64,000 nucleotides of DNA, from positions 23,215 to 87,214 of the IMG/VR virus record IMGVR_UViG_3300031857_000082; one strand, 5' to 3'. The DNA is from a virus. The notes beneath the pieces were generated by a model that saw only the letters and a program-made list of their open reading frames with translations, did no database searches and was not told where the DNA came from. Below are positions 1 to 62,746 of the stretch, one piece after another. Position numbers and translations under genes: made by a program. Numbering within the stretch: the stretch's first letter is position 1; every line of letters begins with the position of its first letter.

Positions 1-1031
1 GAGAATCCATAGTTAGGAGTATATTGTTCCCATATCTTTTTATTGTTATTATCATTCCAGATATAAAGAGTTCCTATGTTTGATTGGCTACCCCCAACTA
101 AATAGGCGTCTCCATGGTTATTGTTAAAGTCTTTGCCAGGCAATTGGCTTTCTAAATCAAGATAGTCTACAAAGTTAAAGTATTGTTTATAGTCATTTGG
201 TGCAATTAGCCCATAGTAAAGTTCTACGTATCCATCCCATGGAACTATTTCTGTTCCGTCTCTACGAGTAGAGGTTTCATCAAATGCTACAGCATCTACC
301 CATGTATCTGTTTCATCTAAATATTGTATAGACCATACTTTAGGTATGCTAGATCTTGTTCTATCATTAAGAGGATTTTTAATAACTTCATCTGTATATA
401 CTCTTACTGTCTCTGAAGAGTTTTCATCATCTGACAAATTTGTTTGCATCTTAACAACAATTCTGTTGGCAAACATAGATTCTTTATACACTACAAATGG
501 GCAAGCATCTTCAATATAATATCCTAGTGCCGTTTCTGTTTGAGAAGATATTCCTCTTTCAACATTCTCTTCTTTTCTATATGATGTCCAATATTTAAAT
601 TTATCATATTTAGAAGCAAGATAGTATCTAGGTCTTGTTCCAGATCTTATGTTATCTATATACTTTTTATTTCTAAAGACTACCTTGTTAATTCCAGACC
701 TTGGTCTAAATGGAAGAAAGCAATCTTCTAAACTATAATATAACTTTCTAGATAATTCAGGGGTAACAAAAGGAATAGGAGTCTGTCCATCATTTTCTAC
801 TACGTATTCTGATTTAATAGAAGAGTCTAAAGCATTAATGAAGGTAGGATCTTCATTACTAAAATTGATGGGTAGAATATTAAATTCATTTCCTAATGGC
901 CTATATCTATAATTACCAGATGCTGATATATCCTCTAGATCATTTAAATTCCATTCTGCTACTACAAATGATTTAATTTGTAAGGTAGTATTTTGCTCAA
1001 TATGAGACTTTAAAACTGTATCTTGAAACAT
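1..1031 (-). CDS. Minor tail protein, partial (runs off window start)
   Basis: ATG at 1031 overlaps the stop of the upstream gene; reads MFQDTVLKSHIEQNTTLQIKSFVVAEWNLN...; second gene after the tape measure. Confidence 0.6.
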   Translation of the reverse strand, partial: MFQDTVLKSHIEQNTTLQIKSFVVAEWNLNDLEDISASGNYRYRPLGNEFNILPINFSNEDPTFINALDSSIKSEYVVENDGQTPIPFVTPELSRKLYYSLEDCFLPFRPRSGINKVVFRNKKYIDNIRSGTRPRYYLASKYDKFKYWTSYRKEENVERGISSQTETALGYYIEDACPFVVYKESMFANRIVVKMQTNLSDDENSSETVRVYTDEVIKNPLNDRTRSSIPKVWSIQYLDETDTWVDAVAFDETSTRRDGTEIVPWDGYVELYYGLIAPNDYKQYFNFVDYLDLESQLPGKDFNNNHGDAYLVGGSQSNIGTLYIWNDNNNKKIWEQYTPNYGF

Positions 1032-55033: not shown

Positions 55034-55270
55034 ATGGCAAAGTCCAAAGTAAAAGATAAAGAAGAGATTAAGTACGAGTTAACCGCCTTAGATCGTTGCG
55101 ATCGTTGTGGCTCTCAGGCGTGGGTCAAAGTCGGCGGGGTAAATGGAGAATTACTATTCTGTTCTCATCACTACAATAAAGTCGAAAAAAGTATTAAAGA
55201 ATGGGCATTCAATATCCTAGATGAAAGAGAACGTTTAATCGAAAATCGATTGACAGGCTCGGACAAATAG
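55034..55270 (+). CDS. Small actinobacterial-type Zn-binding protein
   Basis: LTALDRCDRCG.QA.V...GELLFC.HH. Confidence 0.7.
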   Translation: MAKSKVKDKEEIKYELTALDRCDRCGSQAWVKVGGVNGELLFCSHHYNKVEKSIKEWAFNILDERERLIENRLTGSDK

Positions 55271-55278
55271 GATATAAT
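55250..55278 (+). promoter_or_regulatory. Consensus sigma70 promoter
   Basis: TTGACA-N17-TATAAT, exact match. Confidence 0.8.
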
Positions 55279-55511: not shown

Positions 55512-55540
55512 TTGACATGTGTTTTAAATGTGTGTATAAT
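55512..55540 (+). promoter_or_regulatory. Consensus sigma70 promoter followed by G7-AAA-G7
   Basis: TTGACA-N17-TATAAT, exact match. Confidence 0.8.
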
Positions 55541-56870: not shown

Positions 56871-56951
56871 TTATTTACCTGCTTCCATTTCGTATTGTAG
56901 ATTTTCTAATAGTATAGCCTCTTGCTCTGACAACCAATTCTCGTAGGTCAT
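56871..56951 (-). CDS. 26-aa acidic peptide
   Basis: MTYENWLSEQEAILLENLQYEMEAGK; fills the gap between neighbours exactly. Confidence 0.4.
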   Translation of the reverse strand: MTYENWLSEQEAILLENLQYEMEAGK

Positions 56952-57080
56952 TTAGTAACCTGCCTTATCCATAGCACAATCGTTGCATAGTGCGAACAAT
57001 TCTAAACTAGGTGTGCTTAGTTCGATTTCTTCTAAGCATTTGTAGCACATGGCTATTGTTAGTGTTGATTTCTTTTTCAT
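56952..57080 (-). CDS. 42-aa Zn-ribbon microprotein
   Basis: CYKC...CNDC; GAAAGG RBS. Confidence 0.55.
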   Translation of the reverse strand: MKKKSTLTIAMCYKCLEEIELSTPSLELFALCNDCAMDKAGY

Positions 57081-57106
57081 TTATTTACCTTTCTAGTAAT
57101 AACTTA

Positions 57107-57128
57107 AACCTATCATATACCCCCGACA
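57107..57128 (-). promoter_or_regulatory. PafBC/RecA-NDp-type promoter
   Basis: TGTCGG-N10-TAGGTT. Confidence 0.7.
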
Positions 57129-57150
57129 GATTTGGGAGGGGGTCTTGCAT

Positions 57151-57214
57151 GTCTCTGGCTTATTTGCTAGGGCTCATCCCTTTCGGGCTTATTTGCCTAG
57201 GCTCATCCAGAGAC
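57151..57214 (-). ncRNA. Symmetric structured RNA element
   Basis: 8-bp stem, two identical internal loops, GAAA-capped hairpin. Confidence 0.55.
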
Positions 57215-57226
57215 TAAACCTGTGGG

Positions 57227-57328
57227 CTATTCGCCTCGCCAGATTTTGTAGAACTGGTCGTAATCAGGTTCTACACCCTCTGGGAGTTCTTGCTCCCAAG
57301 CCTCTAGGGCTTCAACGTATCCTCTCAT
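57227..57328 (-). CDS. 33-aa acidic microprotein
   Basis: MRGYVEALEAWEQELPEGVEPDYDQFYKIWRGE; AAGGAGG RBS and its own promoter. Confidence 0.6.
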   Translation of the reverse strand: MRGYVEALEAWEQELPEGVEPDYDQFYKIWRGE

Positions 57329-57361
57329 TTGGATACCTCCTTAATTTCTATCTATACTTTA

Positions 57362-57383
57362 ATCATAAATGGGGGGTCTGACA
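57362..57383 (-). promoter_or_regulatory. PafBC/RecA-NDp-type promoter
   Basis: TGTCAG-N10-TATGAT. Confidence 0.7.
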
Positions 57384-57397
57384 ATTTTGGCCTATTT

Positions 57398-57427
57398 AGA
57401 TGAACGCCAGGTTAACAATAGATGAAC
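57398..57427 (-). promoter_or_regulatory. PHO-box-like triple 11-bp direct repeat
   Basis: GTTCATCT-att-GTTAACCT-ggc-GTTCATCT. Confidence 0.5.
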
Positions 57428-57473
57428 AAATTTAGGGTTATCAACAGGCAACACGCCGTATATGTTAATAAAG

Positions 57474-57503
57474 TTATACACAATGTTAGTAACCTGTGGA
57501 TAA
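57474..57503. promoter_or_regulatory. Inverted pair of DnaA boxes
   Basis: TTATACACA (+) and TTATCCACA (-). Confidence 0.6.
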
Positions 57504-57573
57504 AGCGGGCGTCAGGATCGGGCGTGTCGCACCTTTACGTTAAGACACGCCCTTGCCGAATGCAGGCTATTGG

Positions 57574-57636
57574 TTAGTTATAACTTCTAGCACAAGAACG
57601 GCACATGTAATTAGAGGTGCAAGAACATTGAATCAT
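57574..57636 (-). CDS. 20-aa Cys4 micropeptide
   Basis: MIQCSCTSNYMCRSCARSYN; GAAAGGA RBS and its own promoter. Confidence 0.5.
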   Translation of the reverse strand: MIQCSCTSNYMCRSCARSYN

Positions 57637-57657
57637 TTATTTCCTTTCGTTAATTAA

Positions 57658-57679
57658 AACCTATCACTACCCCCTGACA
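57658..57679 (-). promoter_or_regulatory. PafBC/RecA-NDp-type promoter
   Basis: TGTCAG-N10-TAGGTT, also TTGACT at -35. Confidence 0.7.
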
Positions 57680-57759
57680 AAGTCAAATCGACACGCCGCT
57701 GACGCCCCGATCGGGCGTGTCGCACCTTTACGTTAAGATGCGAGGGTTCCCGATGCAGA

Positions 57760-57954
57760 CTACCTTAGTCTAACAAATGTAGGCCAGGTAATTCCACAAG
57801 CCTCTTGAAATTTAATGTCATTAAAGTTTTTATTTTCTGCAAAAAACAAATCACCAAATTCCAAAACAATTTCTTCAAAAGTAGTTTGAGGAATTTCATC
57901 CTTAAATTCTTTTAATAGGGAAGCAACCTTTTCAAAGTGTTGTCTAGTCATCAT
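57760..57954 (-). CDS. Hypothetical protein
   Basis: MMTRQHFEKVA...F...F.EACG; AAAGGA RBS. Confidence 0.65.
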   Translation of the reverse strand: MMTRQHFEKVASLLKEFKDEIPQTTFEEIVLEFGDLFFAENKNFNDIKFQEACGITWPTFVRLR

Positions 57955-57983
57955 TTTTATTTCCTTTGTTTGTAGTTAGTTTT

Positions 57984-58005
57984 AATTTATCACATACCCC
58001 CGACA
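57984..58005 (-). promoter_or_regulatory. PafBC/RecA-NDp-type promoter
   Basis: TGTCGG-N10-TAAATT. Confidence 0.7.
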
Positions 58006-58109
58006 ATTTGCAAACCGACACGCCGATCCTGACGCCCCGAAACGGACATTTAGGTCATTTAAGATGTTAAGAAAAAATATGCCGACATGCCGACCCCCTT
58101 GCTATACAT

Positions 58110-58131
58110 TGTCAGACCCCTATGCTAGGAT
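58110..58131 (+). promoter_or_regulatory. PafBC/RecA-NDp-type promoter
   Basis: TGTCAG-N10-TAGGAT. Confidence 0.7.
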
Positions 58132-58161
58132 TTTAATATGATAAAAGATAAGGATACAAAA

Positions 58162-58278
58162 ATGAAATATACAGCAAAATGTTGGTATTGTGAAATTGAT
58201 ATTGAAATGCCTACCCCCGACTTTCTAAGTGATGAGGTAGTTTGCTACGATTGTGGCATGAGTAAGGTAATGGCATAA
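58162..58278 (+). CDS. 38-aa Zn-ribbon microprotein
   Basis: CWYC...CYDC; AAGGA RBS. Confidence 0.55.
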   Translation: MKYTAKCWYCEIDIEMPTPDFLSDEVVCYDCGMSKVMA

Positions 58279-58424
58279 TGTTAAATGATGAGTGGAAAGG
58301 CATAACCTGTTTATTCTGTGACGAATATGAGATTGTGCATATAAGTAGCAAGGATTGGTTTTTATGTCTGCCATGTGGGCTAGACTATGAGTTATCAAAA
58401 GAAAAGGAAAAAATAAATGAATAA
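58278..58424 (+). CDS. 48-aa Zn-ribbon microprotein
   Basis: CLFC...CLPC; TAATG coupling. Confidence 0.55.
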   Translation: MLNDEWKGITCLFCDEYEIVHISSKDWFLCLPCGLDYELSKEKEKINE

Positions 58425-58578
58425 TATAATCAACTTACAGAGTTGCGTGGTATGCACTAAAATTGGAATTCATTGGCTATGTCATAAATGTGAGTCAAGA
58501 ATTCATCACCCTAGTGTCTATGTAAAAGTTGAACGCTATCGTGATAGAATAAATCAAAAACTAAGTGAGGTTAAATAA
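58417..58578 (+). CDS. 53-aa Zn-ribbon microprotein
   Basis: CVVC...CHKC; AAGGA RBS. Confidence 0.55.
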   Translation: MNNIINLQSCVVCTKIGIHWLCHKCESRIHHPSVYVKVERYRDRINQKLSEVK

Positions 58579-58826
58579 TGAGTAATTCAACACAACTATG
58601 GTATGCAGGAACTATCACAAAATTTGGTGATATACAAAAAATCTATGATGATGAAACACTATGGACTCTTGAAAGTAAAGACGGCTCATATGCTAGTGTT
58701 ATTCTAAATAAAGAAATGATTGCTAGTTGGCGTTGTGAGGGTGCATGGAACTTAGCAAGACAAAAGGCTGAGTCTCTAATTCTTGAAAGAGAACAACTAG
58801 AACAAGAGGGATGGGTTACTAACTAA
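58578..58826 (+). CDS. Hypothetical protein
   Basis: 82 aa, translationally coupled. Confidence 0.6.
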   Translation: MSNSTQLWYAGTITKFGDIQKIYDDETLWTLESKDGSYASVILNKEMIASWRCEGAWNLARQKAESLILEREQLEQEGWVTN

Positions 58827-59014
58827 TGAATACATATTCAGAAGATAACGATTGCCCTAAGTGTGACCATAGTGGTGAAATTATCTTTCATCAATATGTA
58901 AATAGTTTCTCTTGCCAATGGTGTGGTTTTTGGTGGGACTTTGGTGTTGATATTGACAAATTAACAAATCTATTGAATAATCATAATATCAAAAGAACAG
59001 AGGTAATTCAATGA
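58826..59014 (+). CDS. Zn-ribbon protein
   Basis: CPKC...CQWC. Confidence 0.6.
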   Translation: MNTYSEDNDCPKCDHSGEIIFHQYVNSFSCQWCGFWWDFGVDIDKLTNLLNNHNIKRTEVIQ

Positions 59015-59109
59015 TAGCAACATGTCAAGAGTGTAATAAAAAGTTTGACATATTTGATGAACTAGAGGCTAGCGAATTGCTAGACGGACACGATTGTATC
59101 TCATACTAA
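59011..59109 (+). CDS. 32-aa Cys/His microprotein
   Basis: MIATCQEC...GHDC; GAGG RBS. Confidence 0.55.
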   Translation: MIATCQECNKKFDIFDELEASELLDGHDCISY

Positions 59110-59216
59110 TGACTACTTGCATAATTTGTAATGATGATATAAACTATGACGAAGACGGAGGACACATATATCCAGACGGATGTGTAGTGTGTCCAGATTG
59201 CGAGGGTAAGGAATAA
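59109..59216 (+). CDS. 35-aa Zn-ribbon microprotein
   Basis: CIIC...CPDC; TAATG coupling at both ends. Confidence 0.55.
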   Translation: MTTCIICNDDINYDEDGGHIYPDGCVVCPDCEGKE

Positions 59217-59404
59217 TGCAAGCACAATGGATAGATTTGCTTAAACAAATACAAGGCAAACTAAAAACATCAGGCTACCAATTACAAGAGGTTGCAACTT
59301 ATAGTGAAACTAACTATAATGAAGAAATAATGAGATTGTCAGAGCATTGTGACAAAATGGTTAGAAACATAGACCTACTACTATCGGGAGTTAAAAGTGC
59401 CTAA
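59216..59404 (+). CDS. Hypothetical protein
   Basis: 62 aa, coupled. Confidence 0.55.
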   Translation: MQAQWIDLLKQIQGKLKTSGYQLQEVATYSETNYNEEIMRLSEHCDKMVRNIDLLLSGVKSA

Positions 59405-59666
59405 AGAAAAGCCAATACATAAAATGGTTGAAGAAGTATTTGATAAAGATGTAACTCAAGATTTAATAGATGAGTTAGCAGAAGAAAAAACTTTCATAGT
59501 TAATACAATGAAAAAATTTGTAGAGACAGATGAAATATGGCAACAACTAGTAGATAACATTGAAGCCAGAAAAGCATTTCTAGTTAATTTACAAATGCTA
59601 TTTCTAAATGATATAGAAAATCAAACTCTAATTGAATTAGCAACTACTAAATGGGGTAATGACTAA
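59397..59666 (+). CDS. Hypothetical acidic protein
   Basis: 89 aa, GTG start with GGAG RBS. Confidence 0.55.
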   Translation: MPKEKPIHKMVEEVFDKDVTQDLIDELAEEKTFIVNTMKKFVETDEIWQQLVDNIEARKAFLVNLQMLFLNDIENQTLIELATTKWGND

Positions 59667-59894
59667 TGGAAATAATGTTTATTGGATTTATATTCTTATG
59701 TGTATCCTGGTATTTAATTAGTAAAGAGAAACCTTTGTAATTACCCCGAAATTTGCGGGGCGTCCGCAGGATCTAAAAGTGATCGATTAAGATGATAATT
59801 AAGATGCCCCAGCCTAGGAACGGAGCAGAACCAGACTGGGGCTTTAGTTCTTAGTCTAGGAAAAATGAAGTAAACCTAGACCAAGAAGTTTTTA

Positions 59895-60071
59895 CTAGAT
59901 TGCTACTTGAACAATCTTATATTCTGGCTTAACAGTTGTCCAGCGTTCTTTACCTCGAACATCTAAACGAACACGCACCGAGCCAGATGGGTTCTGTATA
60001 ATCTCTTTGACTATACCTTTTGCACCACTCTTTTGAGTAGTGAGTTCTTGACCTAATTGAATTAGTGTCAT
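59895..60071 (-). CDS. 58-aa SH3-like small protein
   Basis: MTLIQLGQELTTQKSGAKGIVKEI...VRVRLDVRGKERWTTVK; GAAAGGA RBS and its own promoter. Confidence 0.65.
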   Translation of the reverse strand: MTLIQLGQELTTQKSGAKGIVKEIIQNPSGSVRVRLDVRGKERWTTVKPEYKIVQVAI

Positions 60072-60098
60072 TTGCTTCCTTTCGTTGTTGTTGATACA

Positions 60099-60120
60099 AA
60101 CTTATCATACACGACTGACA
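60099..60120 (-). promoter_or_regulatory. PafBC/RecA-NDp-type promoter
   Basis: TGTCAG-N10-TAAGTT. Confidence 0.7.
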
Positions 60121-60138
60121 GGTGCAAGTCAATAGCCG

Positions 60139-60154
60139 TGTGATGTTCGTCACA
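60139..60154. promoter_or_regulatory. CRP-family binding site
   Basis: TGTGA-N6-TCACA, exact match. Confidence 0.7.
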
Positions 60155-60200
60155 TCTGGGGCGTCCTGTCCGATTTGTCCCTGTTTAAGATCCTTGATTT

Positions 60201-60222
60201 TGTCTGCCCGATATGGTAAGTT
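60201..60222 (+). promoter_or_regulatory. PafBC/RecA-NDp-type promoter
   Basis: TGTCTG-N10-TAAGTT. Confidence 0.6.
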
Positions 60223-60228
60223 AATCTT

Positions 60229-60384
60229 ATGAGTAACACATACAAAGATAGAAAAGTACAGCATGTTCAAGGCTTGAGGCGTTCAGGTGCTTCTGGCATA
60301 CATAAAAATAAAGTAAAAGATAGACAGAAAAGACTATCCTCTGCTAAGATATGGAAAGACTACCTAAAGGATGAAAATGAATAA
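60229..60384 (+). CDS. 51-aa basic protein, probably leaderless
   Basis: MSNTYKDRK...LRRSGASGIHKNK; ATG lies 6 nt after the -10 element. Confidence 0.55.
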   Translation: MSNTYKDRKVQHVQGLRRSGASGIHKNKVKDRQKRLSSAKIWKDYLKDENE

Positions 60385-61099
60385 GTTAAAACGCTCACAC
60401 GATAGAAAAGTTACTAACCTAGTTAATAATGCAGGCAATGGTAGTTTAATTCAAAATACATTCGGTCTACCTGCAGGAAAAAATTATTCATGCCCTAGTG
60501 CTACATCCATATGTGAAAAAGTTTGCTATGCAGGAAAATTAGAAAAATTATACAAGGCTGTCAAGGCTAATCTATTACACAACTGGGAATTGTTACATAA
60601 TGCAAGCCGTATAGAAATGTATGAATTGCTTTCAGAAATGGTAGCAGAATTCAAAAAAGATTGTGTTAAGCGTAATGCAGAAATGTTATTCCGTATTCAC
60701 TGGGACGGTGACTTCTTTAATGAAGACTACACACAAGCATGGCGTTCCGTTATTGAGGAACAACCAGATATACAATTCTGGGTATATACAAGAGTAATGT
60801 CTGCTGCTCTTACTCTTAAAGATATTCCTAATCTATCTTTATATTATTCTACCGACAGTGATAATGTTGATAATGCCAAGGTGCTATCTAATGACCATGG
60901 AATTAAACTTGCATACCTTGCAGATACATTCGCAATGGGTAAGGAACAATTACTATCCCTAGTTAATAAAACTGGTATTCCATGTCCAGAAAATAATAAG
61001 AAAATTCCTCTTATTGACAAGGGTGGCTCTGCATGTGTAAAATGTAGTCAATGCGTAGTGGGTCGTAACAATATCTTATTCTCTGCTACTAAAAAATAA
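60377..61099 (+). CDS. Gp88-like protein (radical-SAM-related fold)
   Basis: FGLPAG...CPSATSICEKVCYA, FRIHWDGDF, FWVYTR and C-terminal CVKC..C. Confidence 0.7.
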   Translation: MNKLKRSHDRKVTNLVNNAGNGSLIQNTFGLPAGKNYSCPSATSICEKVCYAGKLEKLYKAVKANLLHNWELLHNASRIEMYELLSEMVAEFKKDCVKRNAEMLFRIHWDGDFFNEDYTQAWRSVIEEQPDIQFWVYTRVMSAALTLKDIPNLSLYYSTDSDNVDNAKVLSNDHGIKLAYLADTFAMGKEQLLSLVNKTGIPCPENNKKIPLIDKGGSACVKCSQCVVGRNNILFSATKK

Positions 61100-61354
61100 G
61101 GTGGCTATGATAATATTCTTAATGTTCTTAACACTAGTATTGACTTTTTTATTTGGATTGGCTATACTTGGATTTATTGACGGATTTGGCTATACTGCTG
61201 ACAATGAGGGTGTTCATGGAGATGGGGCATGGCTAGACAGAAAATAACATTTTTAGATTTAATTATAAAAATTCTTGCTATCATTGCATTCTTTGTATCT
61301 GCTAAATTATATTGGGGATGGTTTTAAATACCCCCTGGATCTGCGGGCGTCCCG

Positions 61355-61370
61355 TGTGAGGAACATCACA
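61355..61370. promoter_or_regulatory. CRP-family binding site
   Basis: TGTGA-N6-TCACA, exact match. Confidence 0.7.
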
Positions 61371-61448
61371 CTATTAAGTTAAGAAGGGGCTTGCCCAGAC
61401 CCCAGTTATATGATATGTTTTATATACCCTACTAACAAAGGAATACAA

Positions 61449-61904
61449 ATGGCAGGAAAAGCAATAAATGTCAAGGTAGCCAGAACTAAGGTTATCAAAG
61501 CATTAGAAATCAAACTAGAAGAAATGCACAACGCAAAAATGAACTATGATTTAGCGTTTAGCAAATATGAAACAGATATGAAAGAGTGGAAAGATAAGTG
61601 TGCTCAAATAGCATATGCTAACTTTGACATATCTTCATCTAACAAAAAATCTGTTTGTGTTAGAAATTGGTCACAAGACCCTAATGTCAGGGTTGAAGTA
61701 GAAGTAGAGATTGACAGAACCAAGTTGCCAGAAGAACCAAAGAGTCCAAAAGACCCTTTCCAACAACAAGGCTATGGTCGCAACTACATTGGTGGCTATG
61801 AAGATAGAGTTGCAGATATATCAAATGCAATTCGTATTCTATCTATGTCAGATGAGGAAGTTGTCTCAACCTCAACTTACCAATCTGTGAGTCGCTACTT
61901 ATAG
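61449..61904 (+). CDS. Hypothetical protein
   Basis: AAAGGA RBS; MAGKAINVKVA...AIRILSMSDEEVVSTSTY. Confidence 0.7.
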   Translation: MAGKAINVKVARTKVIKALEIKLEEMHNAKMNYDLAFSKYETDMKEWKDKCAQIAYANFDISSSNKKSVCVRNWSQDPNVRVEVEVEIDRTKLPEEPKSPKDPFQQQGYGRNYIGGYEDRVADISNAIRILSMSDEEVVSTSTYQSVSRYL

Positions 61905-61905
61905 A

Positions 61906-62091
61906 TTTTGGCAAGAACCAAACACATGGATATTAGTTCCATATACTTGGTAGCCAAAAGGTCAAGTGCCTATACGAAATGAGTAGTCACTAGGCACTTG
62001 ACAACAACCTGAGCATGTTGTTAAACTGCTCGTAGACCCAGCCCTTGTGTTCCACGCTAATTTATTAGCAAGTGTCCCCTAGGGCTCGGTC
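61906..62091 (+). ncRNA. Structured intergenic RNA with pseudoknot
   Basis: Three hairpins plus an H-type pseudoknot at 62003-62031. Confidence 0.5.
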
Positions 62092-62114
62092 ACCCTACTA
62101 ACAAAGGAAAATAA

Positions 62115-62555
62115 ATGGGATTAGATATGTACTTGAATGCTAGACAATTTACTGCTAGACAATTCGCTAGGCCTGAACTGTTTAACAGACTAGTTCAAGA
62201 AGCACCCTTTGCCGTTAAAGACTATGCAACTCTAGAAGTGCAGGTAGCCTATTGGAGAAAAGCAAATCAGATTCATGCATGGTTTGTTAAGCACGTCCAA
62301 AACGGTGTAGACAATTGTGAAGAGTACTACGTATCACGAGAGCAACTACAACTATTGCTTGATACTTGCAAATTAGTATTAATGCAAAAAGAAGAGGCTG
62401 TTAACTTATTACCAGTACAAGAGGGATTTTTCTTTGGTTCATATGAATATGACGAATACTATTTTAGTGATATTCAAGATACTATAGACCAGTTAGAGTC
62501 AGTACTAAAAGATATTCCAGCAGGCTGGGAACTTAGATACCATTCTAGTTGGTAG
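62115..62555 (+). CDS. Conserved phage hypothetical protein
   Basis: MGLDMYL...YWRKANQIHAWF...GFFFGS.EYD...Y.SSW. Confidence 0.75.
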   Translation: MGLDMYLNARQFTARQFARPELFNRLVQEAPFAVKDYATLEVQVAYWRKANQIHAWFVKHVQNGVDNCEEYYVSREQLQLLLDTCKLVLMQKEEAVNLLPVQEGFFFGSYEYDEYYFSDIQDTIDQLESVLKDIPAGWELRYHSSW

Positions 62556-62717
62556 GTGTGGTGTGGGCTGGTTTGAACTGTGTAATCACCTAGGTTCCAG
62601 CCCTCATCCAAAGCAGCACGATCGCCTGGCCCGCATTCGTAGGGTTTGCGGGATCCAGGTCTGACGCCCCGCATGTCCGATTTATACCTTTAAGAAGACC
62701 AGTTGAGTATCCCAGTC

Positions 62718-62746
62718 TTGACATTGTCGGTGGGTTAATGTAAGAT
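62718..62746 (+). promoter_or_regulatory. Dual promoter: -35 TTGACA and PafBC-type TGTCGG sharing one -10
   Basis: TTGACA-N17-TAAGAT containing TGTCGG-N10-TAAGAT. Confidence 0.75.

What the first reader, a model, noticed from the sequence alone, without database searches (positions are those of the whole stretch)
57151..57214. Two-fold symmetric RNA hairpin with twin identical internal loops
Seen on the minus strand: GUCUCUGG-AUGAGC-CUAGG-CAAAUAAG-CCC-GAAA-GGG-AUGAGC-CCUAG-CAAAUAAG-CCAGAGAC. The two 19-mers differ only in the central 5 nt, which are complementary (CUAGG/CCUAG). This gives an 8-bp stem, an AUGAGC x CAAAUAAG loop, a 5-bp stem, the same loop inverted, and a GNRA cap. It lies in the 3' UTR of the 33-aa gene. 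Inference: a binding site or decoy for a dimeric protein, or an unrecognised ncRNA class.
Basis: partly seen in the sequence, partly recalled or inferred. Interest (0 to 1): 0.72.

Follow-up and report, generated by a model that had tools for sequence, protein, structure and literature searches.

The report
Twin-loop RNA hairpin in phage early transcripts
The symmetric hairpin is real and belongs to a large family of folded RNAs, apparently undescribed, that sit at the start of the early genes of uncultured lake phages and probably serve as a docking site for a host factor still to be identified.

Summary

It is not a chance hairpin. The same design recurs in well over 100 distinct forms in uncultured viral contigs. 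The loop core is invariant (UGAGC opposite CRAAUAA), while all three helices change by compensatory mutations. 16 of 19 pairs show double changes, and P2 is Watson-Crick in 581 of 581 cells.

The two inverted loops are always 4-5 bp apart. Some relatives add a third loop. Many phages carry one element on each arm of the divergent early region, just after a promoter.

There is no Rfam 15 match, no match in cultured phages, and no description in the searched literature. A 2023 IMG/VR catalogue may list it in supplements I could not open.

Function is unproven. My best guess (about 0.4) is a docking platform on nascent early RNA for a host factor. No phage-encoded partner was found.

This scan has already found the same module on at least eight other genomes. 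I reached the same structural reading independently.

The parts
57151..57214 (-). Whole twin-loop RNA element (64 nt)
   Evidence: Sequence and fold. Covariance-model hit of 68 bits, E 1.4e-15.
57207..57214 (-). P1, 5' strand GUCUCUGG. It pairs with 57151-57158.
   Evidence: The inner P1 pairs covary across the family, with up to four pair types per position.
57201..57206 (-). Lower module, short strand: junction A plus invariant UGAGC
   Evidence: UGAGC in 124 of 124 distinct elements at this position. The pattern required TG.GC. In loci retrieved through a protein, 27 of 28 short strands (lower and upper together) read UGAGC.
57196..57200 (-). P2, 5' strand CUAGG. It pairs with 57167-57171.
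   Evidence: P2 is Watson-Crick in 581 of 581 cells, with 10 different sequence pairs. Its length is always 4 or 5 bp.
57188..57195 (-). Upper module, long strand: CAAAUAA plus junction G
   Evidence: CRAAUAA is invariant.
57178..57187 (-). P3 CCC/GGG with GAAA cap
   Evidence: P3 and its loop vary across the family: CCC-AAUC-GGG, GUC-GCAA-GAC, UGUGA-N6-UCACA. The AAUC variant is also seen in public contigs.
57172..57177 (-). Upper module, short strand: junction A plus UGAGC
57167..57171 (-). P2, 3' strand CCUAG
57159..57166 (-). Lower module, long strand: CAAAUAA plus junction G
57151..57158 (-). P1, 3' strand CCAGAGAC
   Evidence: The natural variant ...GAGAU keeps the terminal pair as G.U.
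57227..57328 (-). 33-aa gene directly upstream on the same transcript
   Evidence: ORF. It is conserved in 6 relatives, and synonymous codon differences outnumber non-synonymous ones in 3 of them, e.g. 8 against 2.
57356..57384 (-). Promoter-like block upstream: TTGTCA-17-TAAAGT, overlapping TGTCAG-N10-TATGAT at 57362-57383. The predicted start site is about 140 nt before the element.
   Evidence: The motif gives 12 matches in the window against 1.9 expected.
57107..57128 (-). Next promoter-like block TGTCGG-N10-TAGGTT, beginning 22 nt after the element and pointing into the 42-aa gene (56952-57080)

Best explanation
**What it is (shown; confidence about 0.9)**
This is one member of a large family of small structured RNAs found in the early regions of uncultured tailed phages from lakes. 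The hosts are probably actinobacteria.

- The conserved unit is an asymmetric internal loop. 5'-UGAGC-3' faces 5'-CRAAUAA-3', and the two adjoining base pairs of the inner helix are conserved.
- Two such loops sit in opposite orientation, 4-5 bp apart. This forms a two-fold symmetric core.
- The outer and apical helices are free to change by compensatory mutation.
- The element is transcribed with the early genes and is usually the first structured thing to emerge after an early promoter.
- In this window it follows a 33-aa gene, about 140 nt from the predicted start site.

**How it works (inferred; confidence about 0.4)**
The loops form a rigid non-Watson-Crick structure that displays the A-rich strand. 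This serves as a docking platform on the nascent early transcript for a host factor with two equivalent RNA-binding surfaces, either a dimer or a two-domain protein. The factor marks each early transcription unit. The likely outcome is a change in the behaviour of the transcribing polymerase or the fate of the early RNA, in the manner of nut/put-type leader signals.

A concrete but weak candidate is NusA. Its two KH domains bind an AUA-containing single strand in the mycobacterial rrn leader.

The fold, conservation and placement are shown. Transcription is inferred from promoter motifs and orientation. The partner and the outcome are inferred.
For: **Fold**
- 88.4% of cells pair, against 69.8% in shuffles (0 of 500 shuffles reach it) and 29-42% when partners are slid.
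- 16 of 19 pairs have changes on both sides.
- RNAalifold finds the same three helices.
- P2 is Watson-Crick in 581 of 581 cells, with 10 sequence pairs.
- In bacterial-genome chance matches to the same pattern, only 6 of 111 have a fully complementary P2. In viral loci it is 120 of 121.

**Loops, without selection bias**
- 29 loci were fetched through a downstream protein, giving 20 distinct upstream contexts. 14 carry the element.
- In those, UGAGC appears in 27 of 28 short strands and CRAAUAA in 28 of 28 long strands.

**Folded, not linear**
- Three-module variants place an extra UGAGC and CAAAUAA far apart in sequence but opposite each other across a helix.

**Symmetric core**
- The inter-module helix is always 4 or 5 bp, while P1 and P3 range from 3 to 8 bp.

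**Loops must be structured or held**
- Short-stem members fold no better than shuffled sequence (z +1.6 and +0.95), although covariation supports the fold.

**Placement**
- A promoter-like motif ends 14-45 nt upstream in 85 of 106 contexts.
- The element is always co-oriented with the downstream gene array, at or near the divergence point of the early region.
- 33 of 121 loci hold 2-3 elements, typically one per arm, pointing outward.

**Independence from any one gene**
- The first downstream ORF varies widely. The commonest family follows only 58 of 146 elements.

**Host rather than phage partner**
- No protein family is universal near the element.
- The phage contig encodes no CAT_RBD, L7Ae, dsrm or ANTAR domain.

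**A-rich word as the thing read**
- An extra unpaired AAAUAA lies mostly 18-22 nt upstream of the hairpin in 105 of 141 elements. Only 343 of 5000 control windows contain it.

**NusA lead**
- M. tuberculosis NusA binds rrn boxC RNA through its KH domains, with AUA critical (PMC2724277, introduction passages).
Against: - There is no expression data. No RNA run is on record as holding the region, and the runs I laid were contigs that are probably DNA.
- The G.U versus A.C count does not single out the sense strand: P1 has 14 G.U against 20 A.C, and P2 has no G.U at all. RNA rather than single-stranded DNA therefore rests on promoter placement and orientation.
- Co-oriented terminator-like hairpins are not enriched downstream: 0.46 per kb, against 0.63 on the antisense strand and about 0.7 upstream. 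An antitermination need is not evident. Rho-dependent sites cannot be predicted.
- Promoter assignments are consensus matches only.
- In this window and in the long-P3 type, a promoter lies between the element and the next gene. Many transcripts of that gene would therefore lack the element.
- The NusA link is a three-letter match. The published complex has the RNA fully extended, which may not suit a structured loop.
- The loci cover only about 14 kb each and the contig is 76% complete, so a phage partner encoded elsewhere is not excluded.
Confidence: 0.4

Rival explanations
1. Autonomous decoy or sponge RNA. The element is made in bulk from strong early promoters. Its repeated loops soak up a host RNA-binding protein, such as a nuclease, a defence sensor or a global regulator. 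It does not matter which mRNA carries it.
For: - Its function seems independent of the neighbouring gene and of the distance to the start codon.
- It has one to three modules per hairpin and up to three hairpins per locus.
- In the long-P3 type it sits between a near-consensus sigma-70-type promoter and a second promoter, like a small unit of its own.
- No phage partner was found.
Against: - No terminator or defined 3' end follows it.
- In compact short-P3 leaders it lies 21-25 nt from the start codon with no room for a separate unit.
- No target is known.
Confidence: 0.2
2. Double-strand-specific processing signal of the kind phage T7 uses between its early genes. The homodimeric host RNase III would sit on the two-fold axis, cut in or near P2, and leave stabilising hairpin ends. 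The T7 comparison is from my own knowledge, not from a call.
For: - The core is two-fold symmetric with fixed 4-5 bp spacing.
- There is one element per early transcription unit.
- In this window it lies between two genes.
- A dsrm domain (found in RNase III) is found in the actinobacterial control genome.
Against: - There are only 13-19 Watson-Crick pairs, broken into 3-8 bp pieces by two 5x7 loops. Energy is marginal. This makes a poor double-stranded substrate unless the loops stack.
- Strict conservation of about 12 loop nucleotides is more than a structure-reading nuclease should need.
Confidence: 0.15
3. Operator for a phage-encoded dimeric RNA-binding regulator. The regulator would shut off or tune all early transcripts together. 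The structural analogue is the RAT hairpin bound by LicT/SacY dimers.
For: - The architecture matches RAT as described in PMC3575810 (passages): a central stem interrupted by two asymmetric internal loops, a variable apical loop, homodimer binding, and a 5' leader position.
- In some leaders the hairpin ends about 8 nt before the ribosome-binding site.
Against: - No overlapping terminator or alternative fold is seen.
- No CAT_RBD or ANTAR domain is encoded in the contig.
- No protein family is shared by all architecture types.
- The commonest neighbour family is absent from this window.
- A promoter often lies between the element and the gene.
Confidence: 0.12
4. Ligand-sensing RNA. Each module would be a small aptamer, and the twin arrangement would bind two molecules or one symmetric ligand.
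For: - The loop nucleotides are invariant while the helices are free to change.
- It sits in a 5' leader.
- The Watson-Crick energy is marginal, which suits a ligand-stabilised fold.
Against: - No expression platform is present: no terminator and no helix that hides the ribosome-binding site.
- The downstream genes are unrelated small phage proteins.
- The module number varies from 1 to 3.
Confidence: 0.06
5. DNA-level element. It could be a single-stranded DNA hairpin at a replication or priming site near the strand-switch point, or part of promoter architecture.
For: - The element lies where GC skew turns and transcription diverges.
- There is no G.U excess over A.C.
- In the long-P3 type the apical hairpin is a TGTGA-N6-TCACA palindrome. 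The same palindrome also occurs upstream of promoters that lack the element.
Against: - The three-module nesting and the loops facing each other across helices need a folded single strand.
- The 5x7 loops disfavour cruciforms.
- The element tracks the presence of the upstream promoter: 5 of the 6 element-less relatives also lack that promoter.
- Short-P3 types have no palindrome.
Confidence: 0.05
6. Pair of five-codon mini-ORFs. Each repeat reads NUG AGC CUN AGC AAA UAA.
For: The reading frame exists in most copies, and the variable centre of P2 falls on the third position of a Leu codon.
Against: - The two centres are always complementary rather than free.
- AGC and AAA never change synonymously.
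- This window's copies encode different peptides.
- No consistent ribosome-binding site precedes the NUG.
Confidence: 0.02

Closest known systems
HK022 put RNAs (putL, putR)
   Same: - About 70 nt of folded nascent RNA placed downstream of early phage promoters, one per early operon. putL lies just after PL and putR about 270 nt from the start site (PMC9378689, passages).
- Orientation-specific and independent of the downstream gene.
   Different: - put is two stem-loops with a triple helix and acts on the RNA polymerase beta' zinc-binding domain without any protein.
- This element is one extended hairpin with repeated internal loops.
- It shares no sequence with put, and its action on polymerase is untested.
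Lambda nut sites and rrn leader antitermination signals (boxA, spacer, boxB, boxC) with NusA
   Same: - A conserved single-stranded word followed by a hairpin in each early leader.
- A-rich or AU-rich single strands are what NusA reads, and AUA is critical for M. tuberculosis NusA (PMC2724277, passages).
- Here an unpaired AAAUAA word precedes most hairpins.
   Different: - I did not look for a boxA-like word.
- No N-like arginine-rich protein was identified downstream; the downstream proteins were not screened for one.
- The A-rich strands here lie inside structured loops.
RAT hairpin bound by BglG/SacY/LicT antiterminator dimers
   Same: A hairpin in a 5' leader with a central stem interrupted by two asymmetric internal loops and a variable apical loop, read by a homodimer (PMC3575810, passages).
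   Different: - RAT is 29 nt and works by blocking an overlapping terminator.
- No such terminator is present here.
- The phage contig encodes no CAT domain.
Kink-turn
   Same: - An asymmetric internal loop with a three-nucleotide A-rich bulge next to non-Watson-Crick purine pairs.
- Conserved C-G pairs on the canonical-helix side.
   Different: - The standard K-turn has the bulge followed by G.A and then A.G pairs (PMC5061560, abstract).
- In the best register I could draw, the first of these positions is U.A and one C is left over.
- No L7Ae-family protein is found in the phage or in the actinobacterial control genome.
RNase III processing signals of T7-type early transcripts (recalled, no call)
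   Same: Irregular hairpins with internal loops between or ahead of early genes, read by a symmetric homodimer.
   Different: - Far fewer Watson-Crick pairs.
- Much stricter loop sequence conservation.
- Cleavage is untested.
UAA/GAN internal-loop motif of ribosomal RNA, introns and RNase P (recalled; my search for the phrase found 0 papers)
   Same: The sequence signature 5'-UAA-3' opposite 5'-GAN-3' is present in every module.
   Different: The three-dimensional identity cannot be tested here, and the module has extra bulged nucleotides.

Membership tests
Any Rfam 15 family | Covariance-model score at or above the family's gathering threshold | tested here: not met
   0 matches at gathering score in the 64-kb window. 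In 56900-57500 at E <= 10 there are only two chance-level lncRNA fragments, with E of 1.9 and 5.9.
HK022 put RNA | Two adjacent stem-loops of about 70 nt in total | tested here: not met
   A single extended hairpin with three coaxial helices. The put definition is from PMC9378689.
HK022 put RNA | Located downstream of an early promoter, in each early operon | tested here: met
   A promoter-like motif lies within 45 nt upstream in 85 of 106 contexts. There is one element per divergent arm in many loci. In this window the predicted start is about 140 nt upstream.
HK022 put RNA | Binds the RNA polymerase beta' zinc-binding domain and suppresses pausing and termination without protein factors | not testable with these tools
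   Needs in vitro transcription.
RAT / BglG-family antitermination | Hairpin with a central stem, two asymmetric internal loops and a variable apical loop | tested here: met
   The RAT definition is from PMC3575810. The element is about twice as long as RAT.
RAT / BglG-family antitermination | Overlap with an intrinsic terminator whose formation it prevents | tested here: not met
   No terminator-like site on the minus strand at or just after the element. No competing hairpin in the context folds.
RAT / BglG-family antitermination | Cognate CAT-domain protein | tested here: not met
   PF03123 is absent from the 87-kb contig at E <= 0.1. A host copy cannot be excluded.
Kink-turn | Three-nucleotide bulge followed by tandem G.A and A.G pairs | tested here: not met
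   Reading the sequence directly, after the RAA bulge the long strand continues U-A-A, opposite G-A of UGAGC. This gives U.A and then A.G. The consensus is from the PMC5061560 abstract.
RNase III processing signal | About two turns of mostly double-stranded RNA cleaved by RNase III | tested here: inconclusive
   About 30 stacked layers if the loops stack, but only 16 Watson-Crick pairs here. Cleavage is not testable.
Riboswitch | Aptamer coupled to an expression platform (a terminator or a helix occluding the ribosome-binding site) | tested here: not met
   No platform in this window or in 4 relatives.
UAA/GAN internal-loop motif (recalled) | 5'-UAA-3' opposite 5'-GAN-3' in an internal loop flanked by helices | tested here: met
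   Sequence signature only: CAAA-UAA opposite U-GAG-C in every module. The three-dimensional geometry is not testable, and the motif definition comes from memory.

The most novel reading that the evidence does not exclude
The twin-loop module is a new kind of nascent-RNA signal. Actinobacterial phages would use it to load a host elongation factor, perhaps NusA through its paired KH domains, onto every early transcription complex. It would be an RNA-only functional counterpart of nut/put in a phylum where no phage antitermination system is known to me. The alternative is a new RNA decoy that disarms a host RNA-binding defence at the very start of infection.
Probability: 0.25. Interest if true: 0.8.

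Novelty: new variant of a known kind. Interest (0 to 1): 0.6.

Why it matters
Nothing is known about how the abundant phages of freshwater actinobacteria control their first minutes of infection.

- This is a small RNA with very strong comparative support. It is present in hundreds of uncultured phage contigs, is placed at the head of early operons, and has no match in Rfam.
- It gives a concrete handle. Its 12 invariant loop nucleotides define a bait for finding the host or phage factor that reads it.
- Its modular build (one to three identical loops on interchangeable helices) is unusual among natural RNAs. It could also serve as a compact, repeatable protein-docking part.

If it turns out to be an antitermination or decoy signal, it would extend a mechanism that has been worked out almost only in lambdoid coliphages.

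Tried and rejected
**Known families and cultured phages**
- Rfam gave nothing.
- Cultured phages gave no match, either for the 4.5-kb region or for a 161-nt relative of the element.

**Linear direct repeat or DNA-binding site**
Rejected. The two pentamers are always complementary rather than identical, and three-module variants only make sense when folded.

**Mini-ORF**
Rejected. There are no synonymous changes, and the centres are always complementary.

**RNA activator of PafBC at the adjacent TGTCNG-type promoters**
Disfavoured. PafBC is activated by ssDNA, and the one 12-nt ssRNA tested did not activate it (PMC11804915, passages).

**Antiterminator need**
Terminator-like hairpins are not enriched downstream.

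**Strand test by G.U against A.C counts**
Inconclusive.

**Phage-encoded partner**
- Clustering 2,993 ORFs from 114 loci gave no universal family.
- The commonest family is absent from this window and has no Pfam match.
- No CAT_RBD, L7Ae, dsrm or ANTAR domain is encoded.

**Host identification through bacterial genomes**
Only 6 real elements turned up. All are on MAG contigs from unrelated bins and are probably misbinned phage DNA.

**Expression**
No RNA holder is listed. The four runs I laid are contigs, probably DNA, and show nothing about transcription.

**Literature**
- Searches for loop words found only unrelated papers.
- The phrase for the recalled UAA/GAN motif found 0 papers.
- The RecA-NDp consensus letters are not in the text of PMC6789036.
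The element may be among them, unnamed.

**Not tested**
I ran no search for a boxA-like word, no whole-contig co-occurrence analysis, and no metagenome-contig scan.

Full report
**Observation**

The minus strand of 57151-57214 reads GUCUCUGG-AUGAGC-CUAGG-CAAAUAAG-CCC-GAAA-GGG-AUGAGC-CCUAG-CAAAUAAG-CCAGAGAC. The two 23-nt units occur nowhere else in the window: 2 matches against 0.05 expected. The fold is kept when the whole 291-nt stretch from the predicted start site to the next gene is folded.

The window lies in an 87-kb IMG/VR viral contig, rated 76% complete. The contig is from a tailed phage with portal, protease, capsid, tail-fibre and ribonucleotide-reductase genes. The portal is 53% identical to those of large Streptomyces phages.

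**A large family with compensatory changes**

27 of these, including the window's own locus, carried the word twice at a spacing of 29 or 35 nt.
This brought 83 distinct elements into view, one of them (L149) a false positive.
- On an alignment of 26 distinct copies, the three-helix structure pairs 88.4% of cells, against 69.8% in shuffles (0 of 500 reach it) and 29-42% when partners are slid. 16 of 19 pairs have changes on both sides. RNAalifold predicts the same helices on its own.
- Over 124 distinct elements, P2 is Watson-Crick in 581 of 581 cells, with ten different sequence pairs.
- As a control, 111 matches to the same pattern in 185,579 bacterial and archaeal genomes have a chance-like distribution of P2 complementarity, except for six. 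In the viral loci, 120 of 121 are fully complementary.

**Loop conservation without ascertainment bias**

My patterns required the loop words. I therefore also fetched loci through the small protein encoded downstream of many copies (29 loci, 20 distinct upstream regions).

- 14 of the 20 carry the element. UGAGC appears in 27 of 28 short strands and CRAAUAA in 28 of 28 long strands.
- They include a 4-bp palindromic P2 (CUAG) that my patterns could not have found.
- Of the six without the element, five also lack the upstream sigma-70-type promoter. One keeps the promoter, the leader and an apical-type hairpin but has no modules.

**What the conserved unit is**

- The invariant core is 5'-UGAGC-3' opposite 5'-CRAAUAA-3', plus the two nearest pairs of the inner helix.
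- The outer junction pair varies: A.G, G.A, A.A, C-G, U-A, G.U or missing.
- Some relatives nest a third module outside a 3-bp or 8-bp helix. One has a single-module hairpin. Only a folded strand explains these variants.
- Among all twin elements, the helix between the two inverted modules is 4 or 5 bp. The 5-bp class was fixed by my patterns. The 4-bp class came from unconstrained second copies and from the protein-based retrieval, and no other length appeared.
- The two-fold symmetric core is therefore real and is the conserved unit. P1, P3 and the apical loop are free to vary.
- Short-stem members fold no better than shuffled sequence under nearest-neighbour energies (z +1.6 and +0.95). The loops must therefore form their own non-canonical structure or be held by a partner.
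- The loop carries the sequence signature that I recall as the UAA/GAN motif. It can be drawn in a K-turn-like register, but with U.A where the standard K-turn has G.A (definition from the abstract of PMC5061560).

**Placement**

- In 85 of 106 distinct contexts, a promoter-like motif ends 14-45 nt upstream. 76 have the TTGAYN-16..18-TAnnnT kind and 12 the TGTCNG-N10-TAnnnT kind; a few contexts have both.
- In every long-P3 copy, a TGTCNG-type block begins 9 nt after the element. The first ribosome-binding site and start codon mostly follow 21-92 nt downstream.
- The element always points the same way as the downstream array of small genes, and lies at or near the point where early transcription diverges.
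- 33 of 121 loci hold two or three elements, typically one per arm and pointing outward.
- Close relatives of this phage have a second copy 165-195 nt further on (a promoter lies between the two in L054, L092 and L076). This window and its whole contig have one only.
- In this window the element follows a conserved 33-aa gene, about 140 nt from the predicted start. It is followed after 22 nt by the next promoter-like block.
- That block type is strongly enriched here: 12 matches against 1.9 expected, with 0 of 100 shuffles reaching 12. I confirmed only the enrichment.

**Partner and mechanism**

- The first gene after the element varies widely. The commonest family follows 58 of 146 elements, and none of the 44 short-P3 ones.
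- No family is universal within the roughly 14-kb loci. The commonest is absent from this window.
- The contig encodes no CAT_RBD, L7Ae, dsrm or ANTAR domain.
- This points, weakly, to a host factor or an RNA-only action.
- An additional unpaired AAAUAA word lies mostly 18-22 nt upstream of the hairpin in 105 of 141 elements, against 343 of 5000 control windows. This suggests that the A-rich strand is itself what gets read.
- In M. tuberculosis, NusA binds rrn boxC RNA through its two KH domains, with AUA critical (PMC2724277, introduction passages). The invariant long strand contains AUA. This makes NusA a testable candidate and nothing more.

Evidence against an antiterminator role:
- Co-oriented terminator-like hairpins are not enriched downstream.

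Evidence against a RAT-like mechanism:
- No terminator overlaps the element.

Evidence against activation of PafBC by the RNA:
- PafBC responds to ssDNA, and the one ssRNA tested did not activate it (PMC11804915).

Limits of the evidence:
- The wobble-pair strand test was inconclusive.
- There are no usable expression data.

**Comparison and novelty**

By position and logic, the closest known systems are the HK022 put RNAs and the lambda nut sites. By architecture, the closest is the RAT hairpin read by LicT/SacY dimers (PMC9378689 and PMC3575810, passages). The element fails a defining feature of each. put has two stem-loops, RAT overlaps a terminator, and the K-turn has G.A then A.G. I therefore file it under none of them.

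It matches no Rfam 15 family and no cultured phage, and I found no description in the searched literature.

This scan has noted the same module on at least eight other genomes, with the same structural verdict and the same open question. I read those notes after reaching my own reading. I add the following:
- the fixed 4-5 bp core spacing;
- the retrieval that did not depend on the loop words;
- the terminator, partner-domain and wobble tests;
- the leader AAAUAA word;
- the NusA lead.

**Verdict**

This is a real, strongly supported structured RNA of an apparently undescribed family. Its function is unknown. Most likely it is a docking platform on early transcripts for a host factor.

Noticed in passing
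window 56911-62746, both strands: TGTCDG-N10-TAnnnT blocks: 12 matches in the window against 1.9 expected, 10 of them in the early region and each pointing into a gene. I confirmed only the enrichment.
   Followed up: partly
L016, L033 and other long-P3 loci; window 60139-60154 and 61355-61370: A TGTGA-N6-TCACA palindrome (CRP-like consensus, from memory) forms the apical hairpin P3 of the long-P3 elements. It also lies about 28-33 nt upstream of TGTCNG-type promoters that have no element. The DNA that encodes the RNA's tip may therefore double as a promoter-upstream operator. In this window it occurs twice exactly, which is not above chance.
   Followed up: partly
relatives, mostly 18-22 nt upstream of the first UGAGC: An unpaired AAYUAAAUAARG word lies in the leader of 105 of 141 elements, against 343 of 5000 control windows. 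It is absent in this window, where a 33-aa gene occupies that place.
   Followed up: yes
window 57227-57328 (-): The 33-aa ORF MRGYVEALEAWEQELPEGVEPDYDQFYKIWRGE is a conserved gene in 6 relatives (same length; in three of them synonymous changes clearly outnumber non-synonymous, e.g. 8 against 2). It has no Pfam match.
   Followed up: partly
relatives, e.g. L024:11767-11952 (-): A 58-68-aa beta-rich protein family (MTYTI.LETF.G / MIKVTL...) is present in 85 of 114 loci. It is often duplicated on both arms and is often the first gene after an element. It has no Pfam match and is absent from this window.
   Followed up: partly
relatives, directly upstream of the -35 hexamer: A conserved ACGGCGTGTCG word abuts the sigma-70-type promoters that drive the element. 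It could be an activator site or an UP-like site.
   Followed up: no
L210, L237, L244, L245, L248, L294: True elements sit on MAG contigs assigned to unrelated groups: Saccharibacteria, Methylococcus, Flavobacteriia, Beijerinckiaceae and Bacteroidia (the title of L294 was not shown). They are most likely phage contigs binned by mistake.
   Followed up: partly
window 55250-55278 and 55512-55540 (+): Two perfect TTGACA-17-TATAAT promoters lie on the plus strand, facing against the minus-strand early genes.
   Followed up: no
window 57112-57139 (-): A hairpin ACCCCC...GGGGGU directly after the element overlaps the next promoter-like block. The same arrangement is found in L107.
   Followed up: no
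window 57151, 57181-57184: Public contigs from lake and wastewater runs carry natural variants of the element: the apical loop AAUC instead of GAAA, and a G-C to G.U change at the base of P1. Both keep the fold.
   Followed up: yes
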